In this document: piece by piece, positions 599-50,688 of the stretch
How positions within the stretch are numbered: the stretch's first letter is position 1
How the letters are laid out: the number at the start of each line of letters is the position of its first letter
IMG/VR virus record: IMGVR_UViG_3300045988_096839
DNA from: a virus
DNA length: 64,000 nt
Direction: 5' to 3' (one strand)
Notes under the pieces: generated by a model
Databases searched by the model: none
The model's input: only the letters and a program-made list of their open reading frames with translations
Told to the model about the DNA's origin: nothing
Made by a program: the position numbers and the translations under genes

Positions 599-967
599 GT
601 GCGTAATGCACAACCTAATATATACGACGGAATTAAATTTCGTAGTAAGCTAGAAACTTATACTTATAAAAAACTAAAAGAAGCAAATATATTTGCTGAA
701 TATGAGTCAACTCATTTTGAGTTAATACCCAAATTTGAGTACCAAGGAGAAAAAGTAAGAGCAATGACGTACTTACCAGACTTCGTAGGTAAAGACTTTA
801 TAATTGAATGTAAAGGACTCATGGGAGATTCCTTTCCTTTAAGATGGAAAATCTTTAAATATACTTTAATGAAGAATAATTCTAATTATAAATTATATTT
901 AGTAAGGAATCAAAAGCAAGTTGATGCTTTAATTCAACAATTAAAACAAGAAGGTCATGGAAATTAA
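599..967 (+). CDS. PD-(D/E)XK nuclease, DUF1064 / resolvase-like
   Basis: Track ORF with a GTG start that overlaps the end of the upstream open frame. FRSKLE..YKKL ... FELIP ... YLPDF ... IIECKG reproduces the D-(x)n-E-x-K core and layout of DUF1064-type phage nucleases. Ends in TAA. An in-frame TAG lies 9 nt upstream of the GTG, so the start is uncertain. Confidence 0.6.
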   Translation: MRNAQPNIYDGIKFRSKLETYTYKKLKEANIFAEYESTHFELIPKFEYQGEKVRAMTYLPDFVGKDFIIECKGLMGDSFPLRWKIFKYTLMKNNSNYKLYLVRNQKQVDALIQQLKQEGHGN

Positions 968-1826
968 AAATGCAGAATTTATCAAAGTAGGTAACAATAT
1001 TCTTCCGAAACCCAAAGGTGCTGATTACGAACTTATTAACGGCGGCGTATACGATTTAAAATGGGATCGATTTGAAGGACGTGCTATCTTTACTGAAAAT
1101 GGTAAATTAAATTTACCTGATAAAGTATATGAGTTAGAAGAAGATACTACTTTCAAAACTCGTGTATTAAATAACTTTAACAAAAACGATAAAAGTGTCG
1201 GAATAATGTTAGCTGGTACAAAAGGTACTGGTAAAACAATGCTTGCTAAAGTTATTGCAAAGGAATCAAACCTTCCAATTATTATTGTTGATTCACAATA
1301 TCCAGCAAACCGATTAGTTACGTTCTTTAAACAATTCACTACTCCGGTATGTATCATTTTCGATGAAATTGAAAAGAATTTTGATACATCGTCAATGCTT
1401 GACTTTTTAGATGGTGTTGAAAAAACTACTAAAAAGTTAGTATTAATGACATGTAACAATTTAAATAGAGTATCTGAATATCTTCAGGATCGTTGTTCAC
1501 GCGTACGTTATATACGTAAGTATACACCTACAGACAATCTTGCTTTTCTTCCAATGTTAATCGAAGATAAACAAATTAAGAATGCTAAGGAAGTTGAAGA
1601 ATTTATTAAAACTAAATTCAAATTACCATCAATTGATAATATCAATGCATTTTTAAATGAGATAAAAGAATTAGAAGATGAAGACCTTAGTTTAGATGAT
1701 ATCATAAAATATATGAACATTAATTTAAACGATTCATCAACTCCGAATATTACTCCAGATACTGATTCTATATCTATAGCAATAGACGAAGACGACCTTG
1801 ATGACTTACTTATGGAGGCAGCGTAA
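957..1826 (+). CDS. AAA+ ATPase
   Basis: Walker A GTKGTGKT, Walker B CIIFDEIE, sensor-1-like MTCNN, and an Arg in RCSRVRY. Acidic C-terminal tail. Ends in TAA. Confidence 0.75.
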   Translation: MEIKNAEFIKVGNNILPKPKGADYELINGGVYDLKWDRFEGRAIFTENGKLNLPDKVYELEEDTTFKTRVLNNFNKNDKSVGIMLAGTKGTGKTMLAKVIAKESNLPIIIVDSQYPANRLVTFFKQFTTPVCIIFDEIEKNFDTSSMLDFLDGVEKTTKKLVLMTCNNLNRVSEYLQDRCSRVRYIRKYTPTDNLAFLPMLIEDKQIKNAKEVEEFIKTKFKLPSIDNINAFLNEIKELEDEDLSLDDIIKYMNINLNDSSTPNITPDTDSISIAIDEDDLDDLLMEAA

Positions 1827-2722
1827 TGAAAATTTGTGGAATAAGTGATATTCATGGTAATTTATTAGAAAACGTCCCTGAATGCGATGTATTATGCATC
1901 GCAGGGGACGTAATTACCTTAAATGCTCAAAGAAATTTTGATGCATCGGAATATTGGTGGAAAAACCGATTTATTCCATGGGTAATGCAATTACCATGTA
2001 AAAAAGTAATAATTGTTCCTGGAAATCATGATTTCTATCTTGAAAATCTATATACAACAAATAGATGGGAAGAATTTTGTGATTACATGGCAATAAATAC
2101 TGAAGGAAAATTATATTTCCTTATTGATCAATCATTTGAATACGAAGGAATAAAATTCTATGGTACTCCATGGATTAATCCTATCGATTTTCAAAGAAAC
2201 AAATGGGCTTTCGAAAATTATGATTTTAATGACGATAACCCATACTCAAAAATACCAGAATGCGATGTTCTTATTACTCATGATTCTCCGATTAAAAATG
2301 AATTGCTTAATATAGAAAGTTGGTATAAATGTAAATATCATTTCTATGGTCATTGGCACGACGGGGAAAGTAAACCAAGCGAAGGAAAATACAATTGTTC
2401 TAGATTGAACGATTACTATAGTTTCAAAAAGAATTTTGAATTTCCTACAATAGATATTGATACAACTATGGAAAAAACTAAATATGAATTATTACAAGAA
2501 TTTGTAAATGAAATAAAAGAAACAGCAAAAGATTTCTTTGTTACATTTGATTCAGTAACTGAAGAAGATTTAAAAGTATTCAACAGTAAAATTGATGAAA
2601 CATTTATTAAATTCTTGGATAATCCACAAGATAAAGAAGATGAAATTCTTTGGACTGAATCTTCAGTAATTACTGACATGGATGGAAATAATGAGGAGAG
2701 TATAGAAGATGAATACAAATAA
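1826..2722 (+). CDS. Calcineurin-like metallophosphoesterase
   Basis: The ordered motifs SDIHGN, AGDV, PGNHD, THDSP and GHWH are all present. Its ATG overlaps the upstream TAA. Confidence 0.8.
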   Translation: MKICGISDIHGNLLENVPECDVLCIAGDVITLNAQRNFDASEYWWKNRFIPWVMQLPCKKVIIVPGNHDFYLENLYTTNRWEEFCDYMAINTEGKLYFLIDQSFEYEGIKFYGTPWINPIDFQRNKWAFENYDFNDDNPYSKIPECDVLITHDSPIKNELLNIESWYKCKYHFYGHWHDGESKPSEGKYNCSRLNDYYSFKKNFEFPTIDIDTTMEKTKYELLQEFVNEIKETAKDFFVTFDSVTEEDLKVFNSKIDETFIKFLDNPQDKEDEILWTESSVITDMDGNNEESIEDEYK

Positions 2723-3713
2723 AATGGATATTTCAATTCCATATTACGAAGATAATTCGCGTATTTCTAACTCTGCCTTAGGTTGGTTTATTAAATATGG
2801 ACCACAATATCTTCGTAACATGTTAGATGGAAAAGAAGAAGGTTTAAAAGGTTCTTTCCTTGAAAAAGGTACTATGATTCATGAATATATTCTTCAACCA
2901 GATGAATTCTGGAAAGATTATATAATTCTTGATTTTGAAGTACCTAAAGTAAAACAACAAAAAGATTTATGTGAATGCTATGCACATTTAATCGAAGTAG
3001 AACCTTTAGAGTCTAAAGAAACTTTAGCTTTAAAAGCATATCGTCAATCTTATTCTAATAGTAAGAAAGATGATGTAGTAAAAGAAGAAGCTTTAAAAAT
3101 AATAGATACTTATTCTCAGTATATAGAATATTGTAAGAATAAGGATACTAAAAAGGTAATATCTTTTGCTGATTTAAATACGCTTAAAAAGATTAAAGAT
3201 AACATTAAAGAACACAAAAAGGCAAATGAATTATTATTCAATTTGCCTGACACATTTAAAGCGTATAACGAATTCCATATAAATTGGGAAGTACCGAAAT
3301 ACAATAACATAAAATGTAAATCTCTACTTGATAGAGTATGTTTTGACCACGTTAATAAGAAAATTATCTTAATTGACTTAAAAACAACACAAAATGTCTA
3401 TAATTTTGCACATTCTGTAGAAGAATATGATTATTTTAGACAAATTGCATTTTATGGACTTGCAATACAATGGTATATGCAAGAGGTTTTAAATCTTAAT
3501 TCTGAAGATTATGATTTTGAAGCCTATATTATTGCTATTGGAAAAGATAGTAATAATGAAATTAGAGTTTTTAATATGAATAAACAAGAGATATTGAGTC
3601 AAAAAGTAGACCTAATATCAGAAACTCTCAAAGAAATATCATATCATATCAATTCAGGAAATTGGACTCATACTCGTAATTATTATGAGAATGACGGAGT
3701 TGAAGAACTATGA
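2709..3713 (+). CDS. PD-(D/E)XK exonuclease (RecB/Cas4/YqaJ-like)
   Basis: GTMIHEYIL, then DRVCFD...IILIDLKTT (D ... D/E-x-K) and RQIAFYGLA (Q..Y). This is the typical phage recombination exonuclease layout. Confidence 0.65.
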   Translation: MNTNKMDISIPYYEDNSRISNSALGWFIKYGPQYLRNMLDGKEEGLKGSFLEKGTMIHEYILQPDEFWKDYIILDFEVPKVKQQKDLCECYAHLIEVEPLESKETLALKAYRQSYSNSKKDDVVKEEALKIIDTYSQYIEYCKNKDTKKVISFADLNTLKKIKDNIKEHKKANELLFNLPDTFKAYNEFHINWEVPKYNNIKCKSLLDRVCFDHVNKKIILIDLKTTQNVYNFAHSVEEYDYFRQIAFYGLAIQWYMQEVLNLNSEDYDFEAYIIAIGKDSNNEIRVFNMNKQEILSQKVDLISETLKEISYHINSGNWTHTRNYYENDGVEEL

Positions 3714-4228
3714 GAGATTATTTAAATAAAGCTTTACTTTTAATACCTCTTATTGCAAAAGAAAACGAAACAATGCAAAAATGGATAACACCAGGATTCA
3801 TTGGAGCATACTATAAAGACACAAATAAACCTCAATGGGAAGAAAAAATCATAATGGTATTCAATATTAGAGAAATGAACATACGTCCAATATTAAATTG
3901 GAATAATTCAGAATACCGTTATGAAACTTATTCAGAAGAACACAATGGTAAGATATACAATATTTTTGCATATCAAATACCACCAAAATATAAAAAAGAT
4001 TTCAACTTAATAACAAGTGGAAATTATTCAAAAGTATCTTTACAAGTAAAATCGTTAATAACGAATTTTTATTTCAAATCGAAAAAAGGAAAAACAAATC
4101 CTTTATACGAAATGGTAGAAAAGATACTTTATCCGCCAATAACGGAAACTTTAACGAAGAAACGGGAATATACTGGCGCTTTCGGGGGGAAGCAGATATT
4201 AAATATCAACCAGGTCCCGTTGAGTTAA
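3710..4228 (+). CDS. hypothetical protein (last early gene)
   Basis: 172-aa track ORF with an ATGA overlap with the upstream gene. Ends in TAA just before the terminator. I recognised no motif. Confidence 0.5.
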   Translation: MRDYLNKALLLIPLIAKENETMQKWITPGFIGAYYKDTNKPQWEEKIIMVFNIREMNIRPILNWNNSEYRYETYSEEHNGKIYNIFAYQIPPKYKKDFNLITSGNYSKVSLQVKSLITNFYFKSKKGKTNPLYEMVEKILYPPITETLTKKREYTGAFGGKQILNINQVPLS

Positions 4229-26713: not shown

Positions 26714-28693
26714 TCATCTAAAATTTCTATATAATTTATTTACGGTATCTTGTGTAGAACCATAATTGAAAAACTCTTTCATATATTCCAACATTGCTTG
26801 ATCTCGATTATTCAAACGATTATCACGAGACATTGATTGCAAAGCTGTACCAAGTTGACTGAGATCAGTATTACGAATGGTTCGAGCAGCTGCTCTATTT
26901 TGAGCATCTTCTTCATATCCTCTATGGAATGCTTCAGTATTATATCTAGCCCTATCGTTATATATACCAATGTTTCTAGCTTTTCTTTCATTTTCAATAT
27001 TATTCTTCTGATTATATGCTTGAGCGATAGCTCTGTTTCTAGCAACTTGTGATTGTACGGCTTGTGCCAAATTAGCACTTCTACCAAACCCACCTGCCTA
27101 ATTAGCATTATATCTTGCAATAGCATTGGTCATATCTATTTCTCGTAATATTGGACTGATATCATAATCTACTGGAGCAAAATGTGGAGAATAAGTAAAT
27201 ACTCTTGCTTTTTCAGGATCACTATTATAAATGTTAGCCATTGGTCCTATTAATGCAGCACCATTAGTTAATATATCAAATAATGATCCATACGATCTAT
27301 CATTACCATTATTAGGATTAGTATTTCTCTTAGGAATATTTATTTTCCCAGGACCAGTATAAATATAATTATTTGTGAAATTATGGTCGCCTATTTTATT
27401 CTATACACTGTAACTCTATCCACTAATAGGTACTTCAATATTATGTAAAAATGAACTTCTAGAACGTACTGGAGCAACACTATTTGCTTCATCCGTAAAA
27501 GGAGTAGAAGATATGTCAAAGTAATCATGTACTTGTCCATACAGACCATCCTGAACATTCTTAACTACAGCATCTTCAAATGACATACCGGTTTTTAAAT
27601 TTCTCTGTATTTGTGGCAAATCGCTTAATGTTTTGTAAGCGTTATCGTAATTATCTTTGTTTTTTAAAAACGTACGTATGGATTCACCAGCTTGTTTATA
27701 CGCATTCTTATCAGCACTTTTGTACCAAGAAGTTGTAGCGCGATTTCTGTCATGACGTATATTTGGATTATAATTGGGGTTAACTCTAATAAACAACTCA
27801 TTAAGTTTATCTCTATCCTCAGCACTAGTAACAGGTTCTGGTAATCCAGGTGTACCTCCTGCATATTTACCAACTTTATTCTTTATTCCTCTTTTAGCTT
27901 TTACTTGTTCTTGTAAGGCAAGTAATTCATTATATTTTTTCTAATTATTACGATCATTTAGCATTTGTGTATTCTGCGCATAAATATCGTTTCCTTTTTT
28001 CTTACCTGTTTTCATATACTTTTTACCAGCTTGTGCAAAAGTTTCATTAGTTCCTGGAACTTTTAATTTATCACTTAATACCTAAGTTCCAACAGGAACA
28101 TTAACTAAATTACTATCTGTAGGTTTTCCTTGTTCAGGAATTTGACTTATTTCTCCATCTGGGGTTCTCATTAATTCACCATCATCCAAGTAAGCTAAAG
28201 TAGTTGGTAATATACCTCCGTAAGCAGCTAAAGAATAATCATTATCACCATATTCATTAGCCCATTCTTCTTGAGCAGCTGCAGTAGCGTTAGCATCAGC
28301 AATACCTTGATTCACCCTTCTCCATTGAGCTCTAACTCTATTTCTACTACGTCTGCCTTTAATACCTTTACCTTCGATATATTCACCAGTATCAGTATTG
28401 ACAGAATCAGATGTACCAACCATAGCGCCTATACCTTTTGTTAACATACCTGCAGCTTTACCAACTACGCTACCAATTGGACCAAAGGCACTACCTACTG
28501 TTTCTAATCCAGTAGCAATACCACCAGTAATAGCATCTGTTTTAGCATTTCCACTAGAAGGTATTAACCCGTTTCCTAAATCTAATCCTGCACCTACTGC
28601 ATTTCCTAATTTATTTAATTGACCAGTAGCTTTATCAATTAATCCTCCTAAAAAGTATGAATTTATATCTTTATTTTTTCTTATTCTTTTCAT
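26714..28693 (-). CDS. virion structural protein with a Gly-rich N-terminal region (659 aa)
   Basis: Track ORFs 26714.., 27416.. and 28082.. are in one frame, joined by 5 TAG. ATG 28691-28693 overlaps the upstream TGA (ATGA). Ends in TGA 26714. The N-terminal GxxG-rich stretch reads GNAVGAGLDLGNG...GIATGLETVGSAFGPIGSVVGKAAG. Confidence 0.65.
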
Positions 28694-31600
28694 AACATGG
28701 ACTATCTAAATGTTGTTTTTATTAAAGGTATTTCAATTTTTTTATCATCATTACAATCAAAAGTATATTCACATAGCATATATTTACCTCTCATTCTTGG
28801 TGAAAAAGATCTATTTAATATATCTTGTTCTGATTCATCAGAACTTCCCAAATCCCCTCTATCTTGTCTAGGTATAGGAAAACGATAAGTATCTTCTCTA
28901 CATTCTATATTATTATAATTTATTTCAAAACTGTCCTAAGTTTTAGTGTAACATTTTACAGAAGTAATAACTTGTGGAGAAGAATTATTCGGATCTTCTA
29001 TATTACCAGACAACCATTGATTATCAAACACTTTTGTATATTCAGGATTAGGATTAACTGCAAATGTCACTTTAGCAATTAAATCTTCTACATCAGCTTC
29101 TTCACCAAATGAATCATTTTTATAAAAATTAGTACCTCGTATAGTTATTAATCTATCATAAAACCGTAATCCCCAATCAGGAATATGTGAATAAAATGAT
29201 GTAAAACAATCAGATTGTTCATTATATATCAATGAATTACCTTTTGCTTTTAACCACAGTTCATTAGTTTTATCATTAAAAACAGAAGTAAGATTTATTT
29301 TACTAGTCTACGCTAATGAATTTAAGAACGTCTATACCTTTTTCTCTTTTGAGAGTATATGGAATCCATTACTGCCATATGAGCATATAACGTTTTTATT
29401 AGTATCATACCAATAAATACTTTGTGAACTAGATATAATACTTTTATCATTTACTATACCCGCACCATAATTCTAAACTATTGTATCAAAACGACTTAAT
29501 ACTCCACCAGTACCTAATACCAATTGTGCTCCACTCTAATCACTTATAAGCGATCTATCATCTACAGATAAAACATTAAACGCATTTTGTTGGAAAGCAT
29601 ATAAATTATTATTAAATACATTTAAACTAGTAGTAATACCATACTTAGCATCCAAATCCAATGTATTAGCAAACTTAGCTTTAGACCAAGAATCTATTTC
29701 TTCTCCAAATGATTTTTGTTCTGAACAATTTATGCGGTAATAATTGGTTTCGTTTGTAGAAATATTTTCATTCGTAGAACCAGAACTATAATTTACACCA
29801 CCATCAGATACAGAATAAGCTGAATTATATGCATACATCTGATAAGAATAAGTAATACCATTCAACGTAGTAGGATTAGTAAACATAAACCATCTATTTT
29901 TTGTTTCCCCTTCTATCGCTTCTGGTTCTGTGGAATGTTTTAAATAATAATCATCCCATCTAGCATAGCAATTTATAGTAGATTCTACAGGTAAGTATAC
30001 TTGTAAGTAGCGTCTATACCAGGTTGCTTCTTCCTACCAATCGTTTTTAGAAAACATAGATGCGTGCATATAATTAAATACTGTAAGATATACATCTCCA
30101 CCAAATATTACTTTACCTGTAGCAGCTTCATTTTCTTTTATGTATCCACCACAAGATATATAATTATTCGATGATCTGGATAAATAAGAGTTACCACCGT
30201 AAGGTGTAGCTCTTTTCTTAATATTACATAACAAAGTTACTACTTTTGGATCAGTATCTGTACTTAATGTTTTTGAAAAAGCATTATATAGTATATGATC
30301 AGCATTAACATCTGCTGATTTCATATTTATTAATTGATTCACACCAGCTATGCCAAAAGAACCAGAAGCAACAATAGTGTTTGTATAATTACCAGCATCG
30401 ATTGAATCAATATAACCGTCTTTAAAAGCTTGTATGCCATTATTATTTTGATTTGGTAAATCAGTTCTTGCTGTTTTAGTATTACCTATATCTGCAATAA
30501 AATTATTAGACTGCTATGTTTTAGATACTCCTTTGTTACTCTTAAATAAACTATTTGCTGATTCGTGTAAGAAATATTTCATTACACCACCTATGATACC
30601 AGTATTGTTATGGCTACCTATTACCAGTATAGGTTTATCTTCAGTATTTATGGTACCCATGGTAGATAAACCAGCAATAACATCAGATACTTCACTATAA
30701 TATGACATATCCTAAGTCATGAATCTACGTGAACTTCCAGAATTAAAATCTGATGTTAACTGATAAACTGGACACATATAACAGCTTTTATCAATTACTT
30801 CAGATTTATAGTTCGTGCATATTTCGGGAGACGCAAATGTTTTTAAATTTCTATTTACATTCCATCCATCTTTACCATGAAATATTACTGCGGTTATCTT
30901 ATGTTCTCTACTAACTTGAGGATATTCTCTCATCGTCGGTATATAAGGAGATCTAATGTCATTGGTACCGTTTGATATATCTGCATTAACATCACTGTTA
31001 TCAAAATCAACGTTTCTAAAATGTACTGTATTATTTAACATACCCTGCGCAACCACAGTTCTATCTGAATAAGTTCTATCACATCTTACTATTTCAGCAG
31101 CAACGGCTTCATCAGGAAAGTTTTTAATAGTGAATTTTACACCAAATGGTCTAGCTATCAATTCATATTTAGAATTAACATTAGTTATATCATTTGCAAA
31201 TGCAGCACAGCCATCAGTATCACCAGATGGAAATCGTATATCACATATCCAATGTACTGGGGTAGTAACATTATTTTTATTATAAAAAACAATACCAAAT
31301 CTATATACTTCATCACGTTGATATGATTGAAATTTAGCTGCGATGTATGGATTAGCATAGCTCAATAACTAATCACCATTTAACGATATAGATGTTACAC
31401 CTACGTTTGTTTTTAATTTTTTTATCGATATTGAAGACCCTGTAACATTAGCTGCTCCATTATACGAATCGTATAATTTACCATCAGCAGTATAAGAGTC
31501 TGTGATATGTGGTGATTCATATATTTCCCCATATACAATTTCAAAATCAATATTTGTGCCACTACCTCCATAAGTAATACCATCTTGTTGAAAAGCATAT

Positions 31601-32820
31601 TCATTATCTTCTCCGGAAGGATATACATCTAATACGTTCATAGGATTTATAGCGTCATCATCATATGGAATACTATCTATCTAACTAAATGAATAAGTTG
31701 TTCCATTACCATTAGAATCCTATAATAAACACTATTGATTTTTATTAAATCTGAAACTTCTAGTATCCCAATCTTTAGGTATATCCCAATCAGATGATTC
31801 TATATTTGCAAAGAACAGTCTGTTTTTAAAAGAAGTCATTATCTATGCTTTAAATATATACGGTATGATATCATTGAATTCTTCTTGAGTAACAGTAGTT
31901 AAGCTTTGCATTAAAGCATCTGTTATGGTATAATTTAAATTACCTTTTGATATTCTATCTTGTAGTATTATAGAAATCTCTGGTTCATTTAAATTATCTT
32001 TCCAAAATACTCGATATATTTTTATCTTATCAAACTGTGTATTATCAGCGATAAATCTTAATACTATACCATTTGATGTACTATAATCATCAGAGTATCC
32101 TTCTGCTTCAGCTGAATTGTATATATTATATTTGTAATTGTATATTATTTCAGAACCGGCAGATAATGCAGATTCTATACCAGTATCGTTATACAGTTTA
32201 TAAAAATACTAATATGCACCAGATTTTAGATTACCAGAAGTAAACGACTCTAAAGACAACGGTATCAATGTTGCTAAAGCATTACTATCGAAATATGATG
32301 GATTTTGGATTGGTTCTTTATCACCCCATTCTTCTTTGTAATCTGCAAGATTTATTATTTTTAAACCAGAACTAGAATCGTTTACATATAACTTATATAC
32401 ACTTTTTGTTTCATAGTTATATATCATACTAATATTCATATCCGCTGTTATATGCCATAATATCTTCATTACACATCTACAAGATAATTGTGATTTATCA
32501 AAATCACTCACCAAATAGATACTATTAATGGCATTACTATACTTATCCTAAGTAAGTAATATAGCGGTATTCTACAGAGTTTCATCATGGTAAGGATATT
32601 GAACAGCAATAGCATTTAAAATCTTTTGTGTTTTTAAAGCATCTATTTTTTCGTATTTCTTAATATAATCTATGTTTTGTAAAACACCGTTTGTACCATT
32701 AGTATTAGTAACCAATCTAATATTTTGAGCATATCGATACGTATTATTTGCAGCATAAGATACGTCTGTATCCATATCCATACCGCCTTCAAATGTATTT
32801 TTGTGTGAATTTATTTCCAT
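28690..32820 (-). CDS. large tail structural protein (1,376 aa), possibly tail hub / tubular-protein-B-like
   Basis: Eight track ORFs (28936.. to 32572..) are in one frame. I found 17 in-frame TAG and no TAA/TGA on hand translation of all gaps. ATG is 32818-32820 and the stop is TGA 28690. Size, position ahead of the cargo-sized proteins and the N-terminus FEGGMDMDTDVSYAANNTYRYAQNIRL suggest a tail tube/hub protein. The function is a guess. Confidence 0.6.
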
Positions 32821-33716
32821 ATCGAATTCTAATTTTTAATTACCTAACTATCCCCAGTAGTGCTTAAGAAAGTATCATAACTATCTATCTCCGGAACAAT
32901 AGTATGCCATGTTTTACTAATGTTTATTAAATCATTTTGATCAGGCATCATTGCTTCAGCATATGCTTGTTTACGATAGAAATTCCATGAATTCTTTGCA
33001 TCGTAATATAATCCTTGAGATTTTCTACCAGTAAAATATTCTATATATAACAATTTCATAGCTACATACCAATACAATGCTTCAAAGTATGATGGCTCAT
33101 CAGGTATCATAGGCATACCTTCATCATCAGTATATATACCATAATATGATATCTTTACATAACCATTTCGTACATTACTCATTAAATATCCTGGTTTAAT
33201 AATATACTAAGGTGTTATACTAAAATTAGTTGTATTACTACCTGTAGTATTACAAGTTGTATTTGTATTTAATAAGGCGCTTAATGTACAACGTAAGTTA
33301 TCTTCTTTATTTAAAATCTCTAAAGCCTCAGCATCAGTATTAATATTAAACATACTTTTTACCAAAGGAAATAATACTGTATCCTAAAATAGCATCTTAC
33401 ATTCTTCACAATTGTCTATTTTGTCATGAACCGTAAAGAATCCTGTTGATTTTTTCATAGGTATCCAACCGTTACAATTGCAATTAGAGTAAGCTACAAA
33501 ATCTATCTTTTCTAAATCACAAGGTAATGCTACCTAGTAATCTTTTATTTTTAATATTTGTACTTTGTGATCTAATTGAGTAACAGCACCTATCTTTTGC
33601 ATAGCTTCCCCTATCCATTGTGATATATCAGTTATCTTTATATCATTTTCATCTAAATCTAAGTCTGCTATTACTTTTGCAATTACAGCCTTAGAGGAAA
33701 CAAATCTATTTATCAT
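32811..33716 (-). CDS. late structural protein (301 aa), tail/neck region
   Basis: Track ORFs 32844..33182 and 33534..33716 are in one frame and the gap is open, with 5 TAG in total. The first non-TAG stop is TAA 32811, which overlaps the next ATG by 10 nt. Confidence 0.6.
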
Positions 33717-33718
33717 AA

Positions 33719-34189
33719 TTAATATTTTTCTTCGTAATCTGTAATCTTATTTTTAATTATAGTAGCTAATCTTCTCTTATTTGCTCTGGTTAGTACCAAC
33801 TAATATTTTGTTTTATTTGGAACCAGCATATCCTACTTGTTATAGTACATTCTATATTTGTAGAAATCACTATGTTCGTTTGTAAAAAATATTAATTTGT
33901 TATACTATTTTGTTGACTAATAATCTATTCTAAGACTACGTTTATCATAATACTTTGGTTTATTTTTAATAATCTATACAGAACCCATTCTGTATGGTAA
34001 TCTTACACATTTACCGCGTTCAATCAATTCATCTCTAAGATACTAAAAATAATCAGTTATTATCTTTCGATATAAAGAATAAGATATATCATATATAGTA
34101 TCCTATTCTATATCATCTAAGTATGAATTATAGAAAGCTGAAATAGTATAAGATTTTGTTTTATCTGCATTCTTTACTTTCTAATTCAT
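33719..34189 (-). CDS. hypothetical late protein (156 aa) with the densest TAG usage
   Basis: It is invisible in the track because 8 in-frame TAG cut it into pieces shorter than 60 aa. It runs from ATG 34187-34189 (ATGA overlap with the upstream TGA) to TAA 33719-33721. There are no CAA or CAG codons anywhere in the frame. Confidence 0.6.
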
Positions 34190-34827
34190 TGTTTAGCGTT
34201 TATATTTTGATTATCATCATTACTATCATTTGTAGTATCTGAAGGAGATGTTCTCATTACATTCAAATCTCTATCAAATATTAATTGTTTTATTGTAGAC
34301 CACATTGCTGCAGGTATCGGATATTGATCTGTATCAGGATCGTAGCATTCTTCTAATTCAGTAGGATCTTCTGCTATTACTTGAACTTGTATTTTCTCTA
34401 TTAAATTTGGTCCTCCTTGTACATAAACATAATCATCTTTTATATATGCAATATAATGACTACATGTAAATTTACGATACCTCTAATATTTCATTTTAGT
34501 TTCACTACCAATCTGAATAAGATTCCCAAACATATCTTTAATGGATACTACTCCGGTACTATAATTAAAATCAATAAGAGCTGGTAACTTTTTATCACTT
34601 TTATAAACGCAGTTACCGTTCTCATTGATTTTGTTAATATCCATTTCAATATACTAAGTATATAATGGATTTATAGTTCTGCCTTTATCTATATCCTATT
34701 TAATAAGCATGGCTCTATAAGTGTTAATCCATAGAGCGATCTACAATCGGCTTAATTTTTCAGATTCCCCAATCTGATTGTTTCTAGCTTCTAATAATAT
34801 ATCATCTATACATTCATTCAGTGTCAT
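34186..34827 (-). CDS. hypothetical late protein (213 aa), possible head-tail joining component
   Basis: The frame was reconstructed by hand from ATG 34825-34827 to TGA 34186-34188, with 4 TAG and no TAA/TGA. Coherent protein-like sequence, for example NTYRAMLIK.DIDKGRTINPLYT. The function is not established. Confidence 0.55.
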
Positions 34828-34941: not shown

Positions 34942-34972
34942 ATAAAAAAAAGGATTAGCTTAGCTAACCCTT
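34942..34972 (-). terminator. rho-independent terminator whose loop is the stop codon of the upstream gene
   Basis: The minus-sense RNA is AAGGGUUAGC-UAA-GCUAAUCCUU followed by UUUUUU. It has a 10-bp stem including one G-U pair. The UAA loop is the stop of 34960..35415. Confidence 0.65.
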
Positions 34973-35415
34973 ATTAAATCAGTTTGAACTGATTCATCTT
35001 TTATTATTTTATGTTCATCTTTTAGTTGATTAAGTATTGCTTTGCATTTATCCATCTCTTCTCTATATTTCTATATGGATTCAATCTTAGCCTAACATTC
35101 TTTATATTGCGTATCAACTAATGATATTAATTGTTGTTTATCAGTAGAAATAGTAAGACCAATAGTAGAATCAGTTATAATTGTTTTATCAGCACCAACA
35201 CTTATCTTCTTCTATATACCTTCACAACTTATATTCACATCAACTAATTTCTTCTTTAGCATCTAGGATAAATACTAATTGTTCATAGTATTATCATCAT
35301 ATGGAGCAGATACACTAATAACCTAACCTACATTATAGGTTGTGGTCTTTCGGAATGTTCCAGTATTTTCAAGTATATAGACAGAATCTCCAATTTTTAA
35401 ATCTTTAAATTCCAT
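34960..35415 (-). CDS. hypothetical late protein (151 aa), C-terminal coiled coil
   Basis: The frame was reconstructed by hand from ATG 35413-35415 to TAA 34960-34962, with 6 in-frame TAG and no TAA/TGA. Confidence 0.55.
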
Positions 35416-35434
35416 AATCATCATTATTAAAAAT

Positions 35435-35465: not shown

Positions 35466-36224
35466 TCAGGCAGCTGCACCACCTGTAGTCGTTGTAGTCT
35501 TCAATTGAGATATCAGATATTCATTTTGAGCTTTCTGTGATAATTCAAGACGTGCGTCATTATATTTCTGCTATAATTCAGCATTCCAATGACTATTCAA
35601 AGTATCTATAATTCTCTGAGTGTTATTGTTACCAGCATTCAGTAAGTCACAAGTTTGCTGTGCATTAGCATAACCAAGCTGAGAGAAACCAGTAGACAGT
35701 GCGTAATTCAAACCACTAAACCCTCTTGTCATTTCATTAGTAAGAGTATTAGTTTGGTTACAAGTAGCTAATTGCTGTTCATAACCCATCTTTAAAATAG
35801 ATTGCTGAGTATTGCAGCAACAGTCTTTTACAGCAGTAATAATACCACAATCACCAGTATTGATGGCATTAATAACTCTTTCAGCACTGAATCCAGTTTG
35901 AGCAGCTACATTCTGTATAGCAGACTGAACATTGCATATAGCAGCATTTAAAGTATTAAAATCACAGTTAAGGTTAGCTGCTAAAGTACTAACAGCGGAA
36001 GCATTACCTTTAATGCCATCCATAATCAAATTAGAATTCTGGTTATCTGACATTTGTGATGCCAATGCAGCGATTTGTGCATTCTCTGCACAATTTCCAT
36101 TATTTCCAAACCCAAATCCTCTTCCAAACAATGCTAAGAAGATAAGATAAATAACGTTTTGTGTTGCGAATATACCGTTTCCGTATATTCTCTTTATGTT
36201 ACCATAAAGACCAGACTATATCAT
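35466..36224 (-). CDS. membrane-anchored Cys-rich protein (252 aa)
   Basis: This is track ORF 35571..36131 extended through TAG 35571 down to TGA 35466, and up through TAG 36216 to ATG 36222-36224. The N-terminal hydrophobic segment is NVIYLIFLALFGRGFGFG. A CCC triplet and further Cys residues are present. The C-terminus is a coiled coil. Confidence 0.55.
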
Positions 36225-36278: not shown

Positions 36279-36962
36279 TCACTTCTTCGATTCTTTTGAA
36301 TCTATGCTTTCGATAGTCGTTGCTCCTTCCTTTTGGAACAAAAGGCTTGGATCATGATTGCCTCTTTTGAGGTTTTCCATGAATTCACGAGGTTTTAAAT
36401 CCGCTTGTAACATTTTTTCGTAACTGTTTTTATAAATCCAATAATAACCAAAAGCGGTTTTACATTTCGGATATTTAGATGATAAACACTTATAAATTCT
36501 ACTAGCCTTAGAAATATCAGTGACACTTTTAGCAGCTTCTATCCCGTTAACGTACATGTCTATATAATTTCCATGTAAATCTAATTTAACAATATAGTCT
36601 TTATATACCGGACTATTTATTCCTTTAACATTATACATAGGATTATTTTCACCATCCATATTTTTTCCTAAAACATATCTGCGATGCATTTGGTTTTCAT
36701 ATGGAGTACACCATTCTAAATTCCATACGCAGTTATTAGTTTTATCTCCGTTTTTATGATTTACTTGTGGTTTATTTTCATAATTTGGAATAAACGCTTT
36801 AGCTACTAATATGTGAACTAAATAACGTTTACCATTTATTGATACTCCACAATAACCACTACCGTCCTTGGTACTAGCTAGAACTTTGTTATTACTGTTT
36901 ACAACATAACCTAAATTACTTACATAACAACCTGTATTTTCAATTTGCTTTATTATTTCCAT
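36279..36962 (-). CDS. HNH homing endonuclease, free-standing
   Basis: NHKNGDKTNNCVWNLEWCTPYENQMH is a classic HNH core, with an N-terminal NUMOD4-like YVSNLGYV segment. It is an intact 227-codon ORF in the standard code with no TAG. Ends in TGA. Confidence 0.8.
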   Translation of the reverse strand: MEIIKQIENTGCYVSNLGYVVNSNNKVLASTKDGSGYCGVSINGKRYLVHILVAKAFIPNYENKPQVNHKNGDKTNNCVWNLEWCTPYENQMHRRYVLGKNMDGENNPMYNVKGINSPVYKDYIVKLDLHGNYIDMYVNGIEAAKSVTDISKASRIYKCLSSKYPKCKTAFGYYWIYKNSYEKMLQADLKPREFMENLKRGNHDPSLLFQKEGATTIESIDSKESKK

Positions 36963-37763: not shown

Positions 37764-38393
37764 TTATTTATTGTCTATAGTTATCAATCTCGTTTCTTTT
37801 ACTTCTATGAGAGGATTGCTATTATGTATTTGATATTTATATACGTCTCTTTTCTTAAAATCAAAGTGTATCAAACGCCTAAACCAATTTTTATATTGAT
37901 TCTTATATTCTCTTTTATTTGATATAAAAAGCGTTTGAGTATTTTGTATACTAATTTTTGCAGTAAGGATTGAATCCTTTTTAATAATGATTAAGGAGGT
38001 TAATTCATTAGGTTTAATTTCTTTTTCAAAATCTTTATCACCTACAACGATTGTTGTATCTATATTTATTTCTTGATTCTGCGATTGAGCTTGCTTTAGC
38101 TCCTTATCTTTGATTTTTAGTTCTTCTTGAATATTTACAATATCCTAAATTATACTATCATTAGTATTCTTGAACTCATCTATTGTTAAGTTTAGAGTTC
38201 TAATTTCTTTATCTTTATCAGATAACTGTTCCTAATAGAATAGGGTATTATTTGTTATTCGGTCTATCTAACGGTTCTTTTCTTTAATCTGTTTACCCTA
38301 ATAAAAAATTATGGCAGCAAATATCGATATGATAATTACTGCCACAACTTTGATATTTTTCCAGAACCAACCGAAAATAGTTGTTAAAATCAT
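37764..38393 (-). CDS. spanin-like / membrane-anchored coiled-coil lysis accessory protein
   Basis: The frame was reconstructed by hand from ATG 38391-38393 to TAA 37764-37766, with 4 TAG. The N-terminal TM is ILTTIFGWFWKNIKVVAVIIISIFAAIIFY, followed by a long coiled coil. It lies directly downstream of the holin-like gene. Confidence 0.45.
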
Positions 38394-38399: not shown

Positions 38400-38870
38400 T
38401 TATTTTATATCTACAACATCTGATAGGTCCACGTCTAAATATTTTTCAGCCTTAGACTTTATTATTTTTGATAAGATTTTTGATAATAATGCATTTGGAT
38501 GTAATGCTCTAAATGATTCCATTAACGATAATCCTTCAGCAGCACATATTGATCCTGCCGCTATTTTTACTGCCGTTAGGTTTTCATAAGTCAGTAAGAT
38601 ATATTTATCTAATAATAATCCTAACGATATTAATATAAAACAATCTCTTAGTTTATATATAGTTTTCCATAATTTATTAGATTCTAACTTATGTCCATAT
38701 TGTTTGGAAACCTTATAACCATAATACGTATCCGCAAATATAAAGCAGAACGCAGTTATCATTACAGGTACAGCCGGAGTAAAGATAGCAGTAAAACTAG
38801 ATATTAATCCTATTAATGCCTAATAACCGTTATTACCGAATCTTTTTAAAAATAACACAATCTATTCCAT
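38400..38870 (-). CDS. holin (phage_holin_4-like)
   Basis: This is track ORF 38400..38762 extended through 2 TAG to ATG 38868-38870. It has several hydrophobic segments plus AAGSICAAEGLSLMESFRALHPNALLSKIL, which resembles the conserved E..S..EN..P..L end of holin family 4. Confidence 0.55.
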
Positions 38871-38942
38871 TAAGTTCTACATGGATTTATTTGATATAAC
38901 CTGAAAAATATTAATGCTAATATACTGTTATAACGTACACGG

Positions 38943-43921: not shown

Positions 43922-46900
43922 TTTTCAAGTCCTCCAATTGTTTTTCAAGTTGTTTAATTCTGTTTTCTAACTAAGCACATTTGAGAATTAATACTGAATC
44001 ATATTTCACAGTTTTATACCCTGTTACTTCGTTAGTTTCAACTAATTCTGGATAATTCTATTCTATTTGCTGAGCTATAACACCATACGATTTTTTACCA
44101 GTATTTTTCCAATTAAATTGTACTAAGTCTATTTGTTTATCAGTAGTAATATCACATACGTTTTCTTTAAGACGTATATCAGATGACTCATAAAAACCAC
44201 CGGACGCAGTAAAACTATTATTTAGCGTCATTTGTCCGTTTATAGAAAAATCAAGCTGACCAGAACTTGTTTTAAGATGTAAACCATAATATCCAGATAA
44301 CCAAACATTTCCACCATTTTCTTCTCCTGCTTGTAGTTTGATACCATACCAAGGTACATCCTCATCGTGAATATCAGTTAATGTGCCCATTTTGCACGTA
44401 CCTTCTGCATCAATTCCTTTACAATTTATTTTTCCGCTGAAAGAAGAATTTCCACTATTGTCAACAGTAAACGCATTACTTCTTGAAGTATGACTAGTAC
44501 CATTACCAACCACAAATAAGTTATTAGTATCCGATGAATAATCATTAAATGAACCTACTACAAATTCCTAATCATTTTTAGCAACGTTACCTCGTCCATT
44601 AGACATGCTCTATAAACCTAATGCAAGATTATTTTTACCAGTTACCATAGATTGTTTTGCAAAAGCAACATGTATTGAATCTTCTTGCTAATTATAAGTA
44701 GATTCGTATAATTGTAATAATGATGTTGCGTTTTGGCTGCCTATAGTTAAAATTATTCCACCACCACCAAATGCTACTGTAGCATTACCATAAGCTGTAC
44801 AATTGTAACCTACTGTAATAGATTGACTATCACATATAGTATTATATAAACCAACACAAATTGAATTATTACTATACGCGTGATTTGCATTATTGTAACT
44901 GCCAACTACTAGAAAACTTCTACCAGAAACATTATTGGATTCGCCAATAATTAAATAAGTAGTGTCTCCAGATGCACCGTCATTAGTAATTTTATTATTG
45001 CCTCTATCAGTAATGATTAATCCTTTAGACGTATTAGTTATCTAATTTGTGGTAGAATTACCAATAGTGATATTATTCCATGATATTAACTTATCAGAAA
45101 CTGTAATACCATATGTCTTAATATAACTAGTAGTTGTTACTCCATCATTGCCTACTGATAAAGCGTTTGCTCTTCCTTTATACCAATCAATACCATAGCC
45201 TATTTGAAATAAATCATCTTCGTTATACAAATTGTATTTTCCAAATACAGTCTATCCGTTACCAGCTATTAGGTTTTCTCCATGAACAAATGAATTATTA
45301 CCTATAGCCTAACATCCGTTACCTCCTACATGAGAATTAGTACCGTAAGCACAATTATTTGTACCTTCGTGATGAGACTAATCACCAATAGCTGTTCCAA
45401 GCTTTGTTACAGGTTCTATTGTTATTTCTGTTGGCGCACTATAATCACCAGATAACTCTATATTATCTACAATATTTGGAGAAGTAGAAAATGATTTATT
45501 ATTATAATTTATTTCCTTTACTTTATATATAGTATTACCGTGTTTAAATAATTCTCCAGCTGATAATATAAATTGAAATTCTGAAGAGTCATTTACATAT
45601 CCAACATACTAACTACTAGAACGATATACTTTTAACTTGCGAGTCTTTGAAAAAAATGGAGCTTCTACTTTTAAATCAACTTGACCTTCTGCGTGTGAAC
45701 ATTCGCCTATCGCTTGTGTTAAATAACCTTCTACATGGGATCTTGATCCACTTGCTCTCGTACTATCACCTTCTGCGTGAGATTTATTACCTAATGCAGA
45801 AGTATTATAATTCTCAGCATGTGAATAGATTCCTGTAGCATAATTGTTATCATAATCATTAAATATTTCTCCTGTTCCGTTAGAATTTGGGTCTACTTCA
45901 CCAACATTACTACTACCAGATATGGTTAAATCTCCTTCACCTAAAATCGACTAACCATTTATGGTCTTAATATTAGTACCACTTACGAGTGTATTTTGTT
46001 TATTATCTAAAGCAATTTGTACCGCATTAGATATTGGTTTATTAATATCTGATGTATTATCAACATTTTCTAAACCTATCTAAGCTTTAGTTACATTATG
46101 TGGATTTAAAGTATTTCCAATATGAGAATCAGTTTTATTTTCCAAAGCTTTACCTCTAGCACCATCAAAGGCAGTACCTGTTATTTCTCCGATAACTGTA
46201 GGAGCTCCTACAACAACAAATTGCGTTCCAGTCCATCTAAATTGATACGCACTGTCACTACCAGTAATATCAACATAAATCTTTCCAGATTCTCCTGTTA
46301 TTGCATTTTGATGTCCCGCATCAGAATATAATTTAATATTAGATAAAGTACCATCTTCTTCTTTAGAATACGTAGCATAACAATCTATTACATCATCTAC
46401 ATACGATGGTAATTGATTAGAAGGTATTAATCCTTGTTCATTCAGCGTGGCTATACCGTTTGCAGTACCTATTTCTGAACGTTTTACTTGAGCGTCATTT
46501 GTTACATTAGAAAGACCTACTTGTTGTTTTGTAACATTATGAGGATTGTTTTTATTATTTATATGCGATGTTAAATTACTTTCTATTTCAGTTATATTCT
46601 AACTTATCTTATTTTTTAAATCAGATAGAATAGATTGTAATGTATCAGTATCCTCATAACCAGTTAAGAAATTTAAAATTTCATTATATTTGTCAATAAA
46701 TTCTGAAGCACTTTCACCAAGTAATGTCTCTAGACTAGCATTAATATTTTCTATCTATTCGTTTATTGTATTTAAACTAGAATTTGTTTCATTCTTGTAT
46801 TCTTCAAAATCTTCTTTATGTTGTAATAAATTATTTTCACATTCTTGTATTTCTATAAGTAGTTCATCTAACTTATGCTTAAAACTAATGATTTCGTCAT

Positions 46901-47051: not shown

Positions 47052-47055
47052 ATTA

Positions 47056-47514: not shown

Positions 47515-47518
47515 AATA

Positions 47519-47803: not shown

Positions 47804-47816
47804 CGTTTCTTAATTT

Positions 47817-50639: not shown

Positions 50640-50651
50640 AATTAATAAATT

Positions 50652-50688
50652 AAAAAAGGCGAAGCCGAGGATTACCCTCAACCTCGCC
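50652..50688 (-). terminator. strong strand-specific rho-independent terminator
   Basis: The minus-sense RNA is GGCGAGGUUGAGG-(loop)-CCUCGGCUUCGCC followed by UUUUUU. It has a 13-bp stem that needs three G-U pairs, so it forms only in the minus sense. It lies 25 nt after the stop of 50713..51699. Confidence 0.75.

What the first reader, a model, noticed from the sequence alone, without database searches (positions are those of the whole stretch)
33719..34189. A 156-codon gene with eight TAG codons and no CAA/CAG: all of its putative Gln would be TAG-encoded
This gene is absent from the track because TAG cuts it into short pieces. In the reconstructed frame there are 8 TAG, about 5 percent of codons. 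I found no CAA or CAG codon at all. A Gln-free 156-aa protein is unusual. If TAG is read as Gln, the protein gets an ordinary Gln content. This is in-window evidence for the identity of the inserted residue. It also marks this gene as completely untranslatable until TAG decoding is available, which suggests a possible timing switch.
Basis: seen in the sequence. Interest (0 to 1): 0.65.

Follow-up and report, generated by a model that had tools for sequence, protein, structure and literature searches.

The report
All-TAG glutamine gene in recoded crAss phage
This is a real, conserved small gene of a gut crAss-like phage that reads the stop codon TAG as glutamine; it spells all eight of its glutamines with TAG, which is an extreme example of a recoding already described and proven for these phages.

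Summary
The minus-strand ORF 33719-34189 has 156 sense codons, 8 in-frame TAG, no CAA, CAG or TGA, and ends in TAA.

The window is a TAG-recoded crAss-like phage (Crassvirales, Suoliviridae-like). The gene is real: dN/dS is 0.04-0.12, there are 362 homologues, and it matches PHROG 12177. It lies between tail ring protein 2 and tail ring protein 1. The literature calls this family "IHF subunit" or "histone-like"; I could not reproduce that fold link.

TAG means Gln. In 84 distinct homologues, codons 72, 119 and 130 alternate almost only between TAG and CAA/CAG. Across 80 TAG sites in the window, Gln beats every other residue by at least 42 log-likelihood units. A contig 100% identical to the window carries a tRNA(CUA) about 0.8 kb beyond the window end, just upstream of TerL.

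Eight of eight is an outlier, since TAG makes up 19.5% of Gln-like codons in the window (P=1.6e-6 binomial, 4e-4 beta-binomial). It is also the extreme of a family-wide bias: TAG share is 0.61 in relatives, within a TAG-rich block running from the spanin-like gene to ring 1.

Code 15 in crAss-like phages, its proteomic proof, and per-family TAG preference near the lysis cassette are all published. The finding is confirmed, its interpretation is supported, and its novelty is low.

The parts
33719..34189 (-). Target gene: 156 codons plus TAA, with 8 TAG and no CAA/CAG. It is the conserved crAss-like small protein of PHROG 12177, called 'IHF subunit' or 'topoisomerase, histone-like DNA-binding' in the literature and GenBank.
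   Evidence: dN/dS is 0.04-0.12 against relatives.
34181..34183 (-). TAG codon 3. Relatives mostly have Glu; 8 have TAG and 1 has CAA.
34103..34105 (-). TAG codon 29. This is a variable column, mostly Pro in the 65%-identity clade.
34043..34045 (-). TAG codon 49. Relatives have Tyr 35, TAG 15, Lys 10 and Gln 9.
33974..33976 (-). TAG codon 72. This is a conserved Gln column: CAA 56, CAG 2, TAG 18.
33917..33919 (-). TAG codon 91. Relatives have Lys 64, TAG 12 and Gln 3. The closer relatives L087 and L088 also have TAG here.
33905..33907 (-). TAG codon 95. Relatives mostly have Glu. The closest relatives L087 and L088 have a sense-coded Gln here (Gln 4 in this column overall: CAA 3, CAG 1).
33833..33835 (-). 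TAG codon 119. Relatives have TAG 61 and Gln 8 (CAA 7, CAG 1).
33800..33802 (-). TAG codon 130. Relatives have TAG 72 and Gln 8. Four of the six TAG-free homologues have Gln.
34186..34827 (-). Upstream gene, tail ring protein 2 (CrAss_Ring_2). Its TGA stop overlaps the target's ATG (ATGA). TAG is 4 of 13 Gln-like codons.
32811..33716 (-). Downstream gene, tail ring protein 1 (CrAss_Ring_1). It starts 2 nt after the target's TAA. TAG is 5 of 12 Gln-like codons.
28690..32820 (-). Muzzle protein gene, assigned by synteny with the crAss_MUZ genes of L087-L089. TAG is 17 of 51 Gln-like codons.
34960..35424 (-). Small coiled-coil gene and the second most TAG-dense gene in the window (6 of 11 Gln-like codons). 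Family TAG share is 0.54.
37764..38393 (-). Spanin-like or lysis-regulator-like gene (my reading: hydrophobic, membrane-anchor-like N-terminus followed by a coiled-coil-like region). Its family has the highest TAG share in relatives, 0.66.
38400..38882 (-). Holin (Phage_holin_4_1). TAG is 3 of 4 Gln-like codons here, but the family share in relatives is only 0.07.
599..4228 (+). Early replication-module genes on the opposite strand (DUF1064, AAA ATPase, metallophosphatase, DUF3799-like and others). Their code-11 ORFs contain no in-frame TAG.

Best explanation
The window comes from a crAss-like phage (Crassvirales, Suoliviridae-like) that uses genetic code 15, in which TAG encodes glutamine, in its late genes.

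ORF 33719-34189 (-) is a genuine gene under purifying selection. It belongs to the conserved tail-barrel operon, in the order ring protein 2, this gene, ring protein 1, muzzle. Its start overlaps the R2 stop (ATGA) and its stop lies 2 nt before the R1 start. It belongs to the small-protein family that the crAss literature labels 'IHF subunit / histone-like DNA-binding', with a proposed role in DNA compaction during packaging.

All eight of its Gln residues are written as TAG. They are read by a phage-encoded amber-suppressor tRNA(CUA). In the same genome that tRNA sits about 0.8 kb beyond the window's right end and about 310 bp upstream of TerL, on the late-gene strand.

Without that tRNA, translation would stop after Met-Asn.

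The all-TAG state is the extreme end of a lineage-wide bias. This family, and its neighbours from the spanin-like gene to ring 1, prefer TAG over CAA/CAG in related recoded phages.

Shown here: the gene is real, TAG corresponds to Gln, the tRNA(CUA) is present, and the bias is family-wide.

Inferred: the tRNA is charged with Gln by the host GlnRS, the gene is expressed late, and the bias has a gating function.
For: Recoding:
- Treating TAG as sense restores ORFs of 5047, 1792 and 1376 aa and a compact minus-strand gene array.
- The plus-strand replication genes are free of TAG.

Real gene:
- PHROG 12177 matches at E = 6e-36 over the full length.
- There are 362 homologous proteins.
- Homologues occur in Suoliviridae genomes and in cultured standard-code phages (Cellulophaga phi14:2 g073, Flavobacterium FpV4) at the same syntenic position.
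- dN/dS is 0.04-0.12.
- The flanking genes match CrAss_Ring_2 (E = 9e-71) and CrAss_Ring_1 (E = 2e-106).

TAG = Gln:
- The codon-level table of 84 distinct homologues gives codon 72 as CAA 56 / CAG 2 / TAG 18, codon 119 as TAG 61 / Gln 8, and codon 130 as TAG 72 / Gln 8.
- Four of the six TAG-free homologues have Gln at codon 130.
- Over 80 window TAG sites, Gln has logL -203 against -245 for Glu, the next best. The result holds when this gene is excluded: -178 against -211.

tRNA:
- L193 is 100% identical to window 46692-64000 and carries a tRNA with anticodon CUA at L193 3020-3094.
- 54 tRNA(CUA) genes occur in related loci, and nearly all start with U1.
- The suppressor's D-arm motif occurs in 118 of 121 bacterial tRNA-Gln and in 0 of 70 other tRNAs from the same loci. 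The fetching pattern was biased towards Gln anticodons.

Family-wide bias:
- The gene's TAG share is 0.62 against 0.35 for the rest of each locus, and it is higher in 57 of 58 loci.
- Family TAG shares are spanin-like 0.66, target 0.61, the 34960 family 0.54, R2 0.53, R1 0.43 and MUZ 0.35.

Literature:
- TAG to Gln has been proven by metaproteomics in crAss-like phages (PMC9523058).
- Recoding of late genes and suppressor tRNAs in the delta, beta and zeta crAss groups are described (PMC7886860).
- Per-family TAG preference (amidase, spanin, a tail tube gene and one unknown family) is reported in bioRxiv 10.1101/2021.08.26.457843.
Against: - Only three or four of the eight TAG sites (72, 119, 130, and partly 49 and 95) lie in columns where relatives have Gln. 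Codons 3, 29, 91 and 95 align mostly with Glu, Pro, Lys and Glu in the bulk of relatives. Those columns are variable and so are uninformative rather than contradictory.
- The suppressor's acceptor end (U1·G72, A73; read by eye from the sequence) does not match the E. coli tRNA-Gln identity set (U1:A72, G73, from my own knowledge). The charged amino acid is therefore not proven from the tRNA.
- The tRNA lies outside the window and was found in an identical contig, not in the window itself.
- The HU/IHF fold could not be reproduced. There is no Pfam hit. hhalign against HU/IHF gives E = 0.08 and probability 0.7%. The AF2 model is only moderate (pLDDT 70.6) and has no PDB match.
- There are no expression or peptide data for this gene.
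Confidence: 0.88

Rival explanations
1. The all-TAG state is a neutral by-product. After recoding, C-to-T pressure on a very AT-rich, C-poor coding strand converts CAG to TAG. In a small, low-GC gene under weak codon selection, drift can fix TAG at every Gln site. No special regulation of this gene would be implied.
For: - Across late genes, the per-gene TAG share falls as gene GC rises (Spearman -0.61, p = 1.6e-4). The target has the second-lowest GC, 0.236.
- Genes that favour CAG avoid TAG. These include the major capsid protein gene (55180-56646) and, presumably, other highly expressed late genes: 56692-57852, 50713-51699 and 35466-36224. Among TAG-containing genes, TAG share correlates negatively with CAG share (rho -0.59, p = 0.004).
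- The +4 base context of TAG resembles that of CAG more than that of CAA.
- Only 8 sites are involved, and the beta-binomial P is 4e-4, or 0.015 after correction.
- Borges et al. link recoding to low GC (bioRxiv 10.1101/2021.08.26.457843).
Against: - The bias recurs in 57 of 58 related loci and reaches 6/6 in another lineage at 66% identity. These loci are not phylogenetically independent.
- TAG at codons 119 and 130 is retained across clades that are about 65% identical.
- TAG and CAA have the same GC content, so GC pressure alone does not favour TAG over the dominant CAA.
- The neighbouring families (spanin-like, R2, the 34960 family) share the bias, whereas the adjacent 35466 family has almost no TAG, at 0.03. 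That pattern looks gene-specific rather than regional.
Confidence: 0.45
2. The TAG saturation is selected. Eight TAG codons, the first at codon 3, make this gene and its TAG-rich neighbours next to the lysis cassette a tight translational gate or attenuator. They are silent until the phage suppressor tRNA accumulates, and they may be dosed by suppression efficiency relative to the co-transcribed ring proteins.
For: - The gene has the highest TAG density in the window.
- The preference is family-wide and block-wide, with the spanin-like family on top. This matches the published finding that spanin, amidase and a nearby tail gene prefer TAG in crAss-like phages (bioRxiv 10.1101/2021.08.26.457843).
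- The tRNA(CUA) sits at the head of the late operon.
- Metaproteomics found recoded peptides only in late proteins (PMC9523058).
Against: - The 5047-aa ORF carries 32 TAG codons and presumably has to be made at full length. Suppression must therefore be efficient, which leaves little room for dosing by 8 codons.
- A single TAG already blocks translation, so 8 add little to an on/off gate.
- The holin family, for which timing should matter most, mostly avoids TAG in relatives (0.07).
- The correlation with GC offers a neutral alternative.
- No expression data are available.
Confidence: 0.3
3. TAG encodes a residue other than Gln (Trp, Tyr, Leu, Glu or Lys) in this phage.
For: - The protein also lacks Trp, so composition alone does not exclude it.
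- Several TAG columns align with Glu, Lys, Pro or Tyr in many relatives.
- The tRNA's isotype was not determined rigorously.
Against: - The likelihood ranking puts Gln first, then Glu (-42 nats) and Lys (-47). Neither Trp, Tyr nor Leu is among the six best-scoring residues.
- Conserved columns 72, 119 and 130 exchange TAG with CAA/CAG almost exclusively.
- 5% Trp would be abnormal.
- Mass spectrometry proved Gln in crAss-like phages (PMC9523058).
Confidence: 0.03
4. The frame is not an expressed gene. It would be a pseudogene or a chance frame in an AT-rich spacer.
For: Under code 11 it is broken into pieces of 26 aa or less. No Pfam family matches.
Against: - dN/dS is 0.04-0.12.
- There are 362 homologues and a full-length PHROG match.
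- Synteny is conserved even in standard-code cultured phages, where the gene is intact.
- The gene is tightly coupled to both neighbours.
Confidence: 0.01

Closest known systems
Genetic code 15 (TAG to Gln) in crAss-like phages (Yutin et al. 2021, PMC7886860; Borges et al., bioRxiv 10.1101/2021.08.26.457843; Peters et al. 2022, PMC9523058)
   Same: The genome is AT-rich. In-frame TAG is confined to the late structural and lysis genes, and the replication genes use the standard code. A phage tRNA(CUA) is present. TAG aligns with Gln.
   Different: Nothing differs in kind. This is one gene in which TAG has replaced every CAA/CAG.
[quoted passage not shown]
   Same: I see the same pattern in relatives of this window. 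The spanin-like family has the highest TAG share (0.66). Next come this gene (0.61), a small neighbouring gene (0.54) and the ring ('tail tubular') proteins (0.53 and 0.43).
   Different: That study used a different crAss lineage. I could not establish whether PHROG 12177 is one of their four families, because the figures and tables are not held. Here the holin family avoids TAG.
crAss-like 'IHF subunit' genes 53/54 (Yutin et al.; PMC7886860), also annotated 'topoisomerase, histone-like DNA-binding superfamily' in GenBank cr-phage records
   Same: The family is the same by sequence and by synteny next to the 'tail tubular protein' (ring 1).
   Different: I found no support for the HU/IHF fold with Pfam, hhalign or Foldseek. 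No structural-atlas protein (R1 gp43, R2 gp40) corresponds to it, and the gene products between them are not mentioned in PMC10172136.
E. coli supE (glnV amber suppressor, tRNA-Gln with anticodon CUA); from my own knowledge
   Same: A tRNA-Gln-type molecule with anticodon CUA inserts Gln at UAG in competition with RF1.
   Different: Here the tRNA is phage-encoded and has U1·G72 and A73. It serves hundreds of sense TAG codons rather than suppressing rare nonsense mutations. Its charging enzyme is unknown.

Membership tests
Code-15 (TAG to Gln) recoded phage late gene | In-frame TAG in conserved genes, with long ORFs restored when TAG is read as sense | tested here: met
   restores ORFs of 5047, 1792 and 1376 aa. 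The target has 8 TAG.
Code-15 (TAG to Gln) recoded phage late gene | TAG positions align with Gln (CAA/CAG) in homologues | tested here: met
   The codon table is (codons 72, 119, 130). The window-wide likelihood test puts Gln first by 42 nats.
Code-15 (TAG to Gln) recoded phage late gene | Phage-encoded suppressor tRNA with anticodon CUA | tested here: met
   None lies in the window. One is present in a 100%-identical contig 0.8 kb beyond the window end and in 54 related loci.
Code-15 (TAG to Gln) recoded phage late gene | Early and replication genes keep the standard code | tested here: met
   The plus-strand ORFs at 599-4228 have no in-frame TAG within their code-11 ORFs. They are annotated as replication genes.
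Code-15 (TAG to Gln) recoded phage late gene | Gln is actually inserted at UAG (peptide evidence or tRNA charging) | not testable with these tools
   This has been shown only for other crAss-like phages (PMC9523058). The tRNA's similarity to tRNA-Gln is suggestive, but the test was biased.
crAss-like 'IHF subunit' family / PHROG 12177 | Sequence membership | tested here: met
   PHROG 12177 matches at E = 5.6e-36, covering residues 11-154. tblastn finds Cellulophaga phi14:2 g073 'IHF subunit'.
crAss-like 'IHF subunit' family / PHROG 12177 | Conserved position between ring protein 2 and ring protein 1 (the 'tail tubular protein') | tested here: met
HU/IHF (Bac_DNA_binding) fold | Detectable profile or structural similarity to HU/IHF | tested here: inconclusive
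   There is no Pfam hit at E up to 10 for the query or for six diverse homologues. hhalign gives E = 0.08 and probability 0.7%, but it aligns the expected helix-2/strand-1 region. Foldseek finds nothing in the PDB.
Crassvirales (Suoliviridae-like) | crAss-specific structural genes and closest relatives in that family | tested here: met
   CrAss_Ring_1 and CrAss_Ring_2 match in the window. Crass_capsid and crAss_MUZ are present in identical or related contigs. The best phage-database hits are Suoliviridae.
TAG-preferring gene families (Borges et al.) | The family uses TAG more than CAA/CAG relative to the rest of the genome, across related genomes | tested here: met
   The share is 0.62 against 0.35, higher in 57 of 58 loci. 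No phylogenetic correction was applied.

The most novel reading that the evidence does not exclude
TAG saturation of this small gene, together with the spanin-like gene, a neighbouring small gene and ring 2, may be an adaptive, gene-specific device. It would be a translational gate or attenuator inside the polycistronic tail-barrel mRNA. The output of the gene would then track the level of the phage suppressor tRNA, which would set the timing or stoichiometry of a non-virion, DNA-handling assembly factor relative to the dodecameric ring proteins.
Probability: 0.2. Interest if true: 0.45.

Novelty: already known. Interest (0 to 1): 0.2.

Why it matters
The finding is a clean, self-contained illustration of code 15 in a gut crAss-like phage. 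The gene is invisible to standard gene callers and can only be made once the phage's own amber suppressor is active.

Practically, windows like this one must be annotated with TAG as Gln, otherwise a core conserved gene is lost.

Scientifically, it adds one more heavily TAG-biased family next to the lysis cassette, in line with the published late-gene gating hypothesis. It also supplies a counter-observation: TAG share tracks low GC and low CAG usage, and the holin family avoids TAG. A future test of selection against drift would need to explain both. The finding does not open a new question.

Tried and rejected
- Fold and function: the AF2 model from a 46-sequence alignment is moderate (pLDDT 70.6). 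Foldseek found nothing in the PDB (best E = 3). BFVD returned only uncharacterised crAss proteins. A PDB sequence search found nothing. Pfam found nothing for the query or for six diverse homologues. hhalign against an HU/IHF alignment built from sequences recalled from memory was not significant. The 'IHF-like' label therefore rests on the literature only.
- Database proteins: protein-database homologues cannot be used naively. P0001 shows that the database translates TAG as Gln, and the look-up of encoding contigs reported 'translates_to_query: no' for P0002, P0019 and P0104. I therefore redid the table at codon level.
- Pattern bias at codon 91: the back-translated search pattern RSLRIDYQ used biases codon 91 towards CAR. 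That column is not used as evidence.
- Search for the suppressor: it is not in the window, nor in the ~18 kb upstream of window position 1 or the adjoining ~10 kb on that side. It turned up at the other end.
- tRNA isotype: my genome contigs pattern forced a YTR anticodon, so it could only return Gln or suppressor tRNAs. The one informative control is that 0 of 70 other tRNAs in those loci share the D-arm motif.
- Published paper: the journal version of Borges et al. is not held. I could not check whether this family is one of their four.

Full report
**1. The observation**

The reverse complement of 33719-34189 reads ATG AAT TAG ... TAT TAA. It has 156 sense codons. Eight of them are TAG, at codons 3, 29, 49, 72, 91, 95, 119 and 130. 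There is no CAA, CAG or TGA.

Under the bacterial code the frame breaks into pieces of 26 aa or less. No ORF of 80 aa or more is listed between 33182 and 35571. That explains why the gene is missing from a standard gene track.

**2. The window**

The sequence is 30.6% GC with strong strand asymmetry. Reading TAG as sense turns the minus strand into a compact gene array. It includes ORFs of 5047, 1792, 1376 and 1063 codons carrying 32, 22, 17 and 17 TAG. The plus-strand genes at the left end have no in-frame TAG inside their code-11 ORFs. Gene calls on an identical contig list DUF1064, an AAA ATPase, a metallophosphatase and DUF3799-weak hits for these genes, and DnaB and primase genes just upstream of the window.

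Flanking genes match Pfam families specific to crassviruses. 34186-34827 is CrAss_Ring_2 (E = 9e-71) and 32811-33716 is CrAss_Ring_1 (E = 2e-106). The muzzle gene follows, by synteny. The major capsid protein gene is 55180-56646. The closest annotated phages are Suoliviridae. The window is therefore a TAG-recoded crAss-like phage.

**3. Is it a gene, and which one?**

With Gln at the TAG sites, the protein matches PHROG 12177 end to end (E = 6e-36). It has 362 database homologues. tblastn finds it in 62 phage records. These include the cultured standard-code phages Cellulophaga phi14:2 (g073, annotated 'IHF subunit') and the Flavobacterium FpV4 group, where the ORF is intact.

Nei-Gojobori dN/dS against relatives is 0.04-0.12.

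The start codon overlaps the ring-2 stop (ATGA), and ring 1 starts 2 nt after the gene's TAA. The order ring 2, this gene, ring 1, muzzle is conserved.

GenBank labels the family 'topoisomerase, histone-like DNA-binding superfamily', 'peptidoglycan-associated protein-like' or 'IHF subunit'. Yutin et al. treat IHF as a signature gene of crAss-like phages and suggest a role in DNA compaction during virion assembly (PMC7886860).

I could not reproduce the HU/IHF link:
- Pfam gives no hit.
- hhalign gives E = 0.08 and probability 0.7%, although it aligns the expected helix-2/strand-1 region.
- The AF2 model has pLDDT 70.6.
- There is no PDB match, and BFVD returns only uncharacterised crAss proteins.

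In the crAss001 structural atlas, R1 is gp43 and R2 is gp40. The gene products between them are not mentioned (PMC10172136). A role as a non-virion or low-copy factor is possible but unproven.

**4. What TAG encodes**

Database proteins are not safe evidence here. P0001, the same protein at 99% identity, already carries Gln at all eight TAG sites. Three further homologues do not translate to their database sequence under code 11. I therefore worked at codon level on DNA from 84 distinct homologues.

| Codon | Codons or residues in relatives |
|---|---|
| 72 | CAA 56, CAG 2, TAG 18, other 6 |
| 119 | TAG 61, CAA 7, CAG 1 |
| 130 | TAG 72, CAA 7, CAG 1 |
| 49 and 95 | Gln occurs in this column in some relatives; at codon 95 it is the residue in the closest relatives, L087 and L088 |
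| 3, 29, 91 | variable columns (Glu, Pro, Lys) |

At codon 130, four of the six TAG-free homologues have Gln.

I also ran a window-wide test that does not depend on this gene. I took 80 window TAG sites that have aligned homologues at 90% identity or less. For each candidate residue I compared the residues opposite TAG with the substitution profile of that residue in the same alignments. Gln scores -203, Glu -245 and Lys -251. With the target and the adjacent ring-2 gene excluded, Gln scores -178 and Glu -211.

The protein also has no Trp.

**5. The decoder**

ARAGORN finds no tRNA in the window. I walked outward through contigs that are identical or nearly identical to the window. L193 (ENA ERZ19617638, 97.6 kb) is 100% identical to window 46692-64000. 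It carries a tRNA with anticodon CUA at L193 3020-3094. That is about 760-830 bp beyond window position 64000 and about 310 bp upstream of the TerL start, on the late-gene strand.

Fifty-four such tRNAs occur in related loci, and nearly all begin with U1. The suppressor's D-arm motif is present in 118 of 121 bacterial tRNA-Gln and in none of 70 other tRNAs from the same bacterial loci. My search pattern forced a Gln or suppressor anticodon, so this is only suggestive. The acceptor end (U1·G72, A73) is not the classical E. coli tRNA-Gln set. Charging remains inferred.

**6. Is 8 of 8 more than chance, and what does it mean?**

In the window TAG is 185 of 949 Gln-like codons (19.5%). P(8/8) is 1.6e-6 under a single rate. 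Between-gene heterogeneity is real (chi2 = 137, df 45, p = 3e-11). Under a beta-binomial fitted to the other late genes, P is 4e-4, or 0.015 after correction. The gene has the highest TAG density in the window.

The bias belongs to the family, not just to this genome. In 58 related loci the gene's TAG share is 0.62, against 0.35 for the rest of each locus, and it is higher in 57 of the 58. Another lineage at 66% identity reaches 6/6.

| Family | TAG share in relatives |
|---|---|
| spanin-like | 0.66 |
| this gene | 0.61 |
| 34960-35424 family | 0.54 |
| ring 2 | 0.53 |
| ring 1 | 0.43 |
| muzzle | 0.35 |
| DUF7841 | 0.12 |
| holin | 0.07 |
| 35466-36224 family | 0.03 |

This reproduces the codon-preference analysis of Borges et al.. 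They found that in TAG-recoded crAss-like phages only four families prefer TAG to CAA/CAG: an amidase, a spanin, a tail tube gene two genes downstream of the spanin, and one family of unknown function. They read this as regulation of late and lytic genes.

Two observations argue for caution about selection:
- TAG share falls with gene GC (rho -0.61, p = 1.6e-4), and the target has the second-lowest GC.
- Genes that favour CAG avoid TAG; these include the major capsid protein gene and, presumably, other highly expressed late genes.

The 5047-codon ORF has 32 TAG. I assume it must be made at full length, so suppression must be efficient, which limits any dosing effect of eight codons. I therefore rate a neutral origin (0.45) somewhat above gene-specific selection (0.3).

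**7. Verdict**

The suggested timing switch is the existing hypothesis for these phages and was not tested here.

Three things are already published: code 15 in crAss-like phages (PMC7886860), its proteomic validation (PMC9523058), and per-family TAG preference next to the lysis cassette (bioRxiv 10.1101/2021.08.26.457843). Identical contigs for this genome are public. This is a tidy, extreme example of a known phenomenon, so its interest is low.

Noticed in passing
window 36279-36962 and 54026-55108: Two homing-endonuclease genes sit inside the TAG-containing late region and are themselves free of TAG. One matches HNH_3. The other is GIY-YIG/NUMOD1, assigned from an identical contig. They may need to be expressed independently of the suppressor, or they may move between phages that use different codes.
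   Followed up: partly
window 55180-56646, 56692-57852, 50713-51699, 35466-36224: A subset of late genes avoids TAG almost completely and prefers CAG over the otherwise dominant CAA. The subset includes the major capsid protein gene, which has 11 CAG among 12 CAA/CAG codons and 1 TAG. The 35466-36224 family has a TAG share of 0.03 across 46 relatives. This suggests codon selection against TAG in highly expressed genes.
   Followed up: partly
L099 5216-7913 (IMG/VR 3300045988_097163, near-identical genome; outside the window): A non-coding stretch next to tRNA-Leu(UAA) holds three Hatchet ribozyme matches (93, 90.9 and 69.7 bits; gathering score 51). It also has sub-threshold RAGATH-7, RAGATH-6 and twister-P1 matches.
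   Followed up: partly
L093 1372-1863 and L096 1367-1845 (outside the window, roughly 17 kb upstream of window position 1): There is a tmRNA-like locus here. ARAGORN calls a permuted tmRNA with tag peptide GKTFVTDYTRIAA in L096. L093 encodes GNKFVTDYTRIAA* between two tRNA-like pieces. One piece (54.8 bits) has a 57-nt insertion in the anticodon loop and a G3:U70 pair. Rfam tmRNA_permuted scores only 25 bits.
   Followed up: partly
L093 11151-11224, L094 10238-10309, L095 11151-11222 (outside the window): One tRNA gene has its acceptor and T arms conserved, while its D and anticodon arms differ between near-identical genomes (sequences read for L093 and L094 only). ARAGORN calls it Ile(GAU), Ala(AGC) or Val(AAC) depending on the genome.
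   Followed up: no
L193 3020-3094 versus L105 7917-7989 (outside the window): The suppressor tRNA(CUA) has quite different sequences in genomes that are 96-98% identical over the flanking genes. This suggests that the tRNA cassette has been swapped. A further tRNA-like remnant (T-arm plus acceptor) lies at about L193 3205-3270.
   Followed up: no
L192 657-3839 and 4389-7955; L194 2285-5467: Close relatives carry intein or LAGLIDADG insertions in the TerL and portal genes. Their products are 1060 and 1188 aa, against 687 and 831 aa in the window's genome. L105 has a 1.1 kb insertion in TerL relative to the window.
   Followed up: no
window 9690-24833: A single 5047-codon ORF with 32 in-frame TAG follows a 1792-codon ORF (4309-9687) with 22. 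I presume these are the giant virion proteins typical of crassviruses. They imply that TAG suppression must be efficient.
   Followed up: no
window 50713-51699, 52538-53245, 53248-54000, 55180-56646: In each of these genes a single TAG joins two code-11 ORFs that lie in the same frame. Gene calls on identical contigs treat them as single genes. I did not check whether any of these TAG codons acts as a leaky stop.
   Followed up: no
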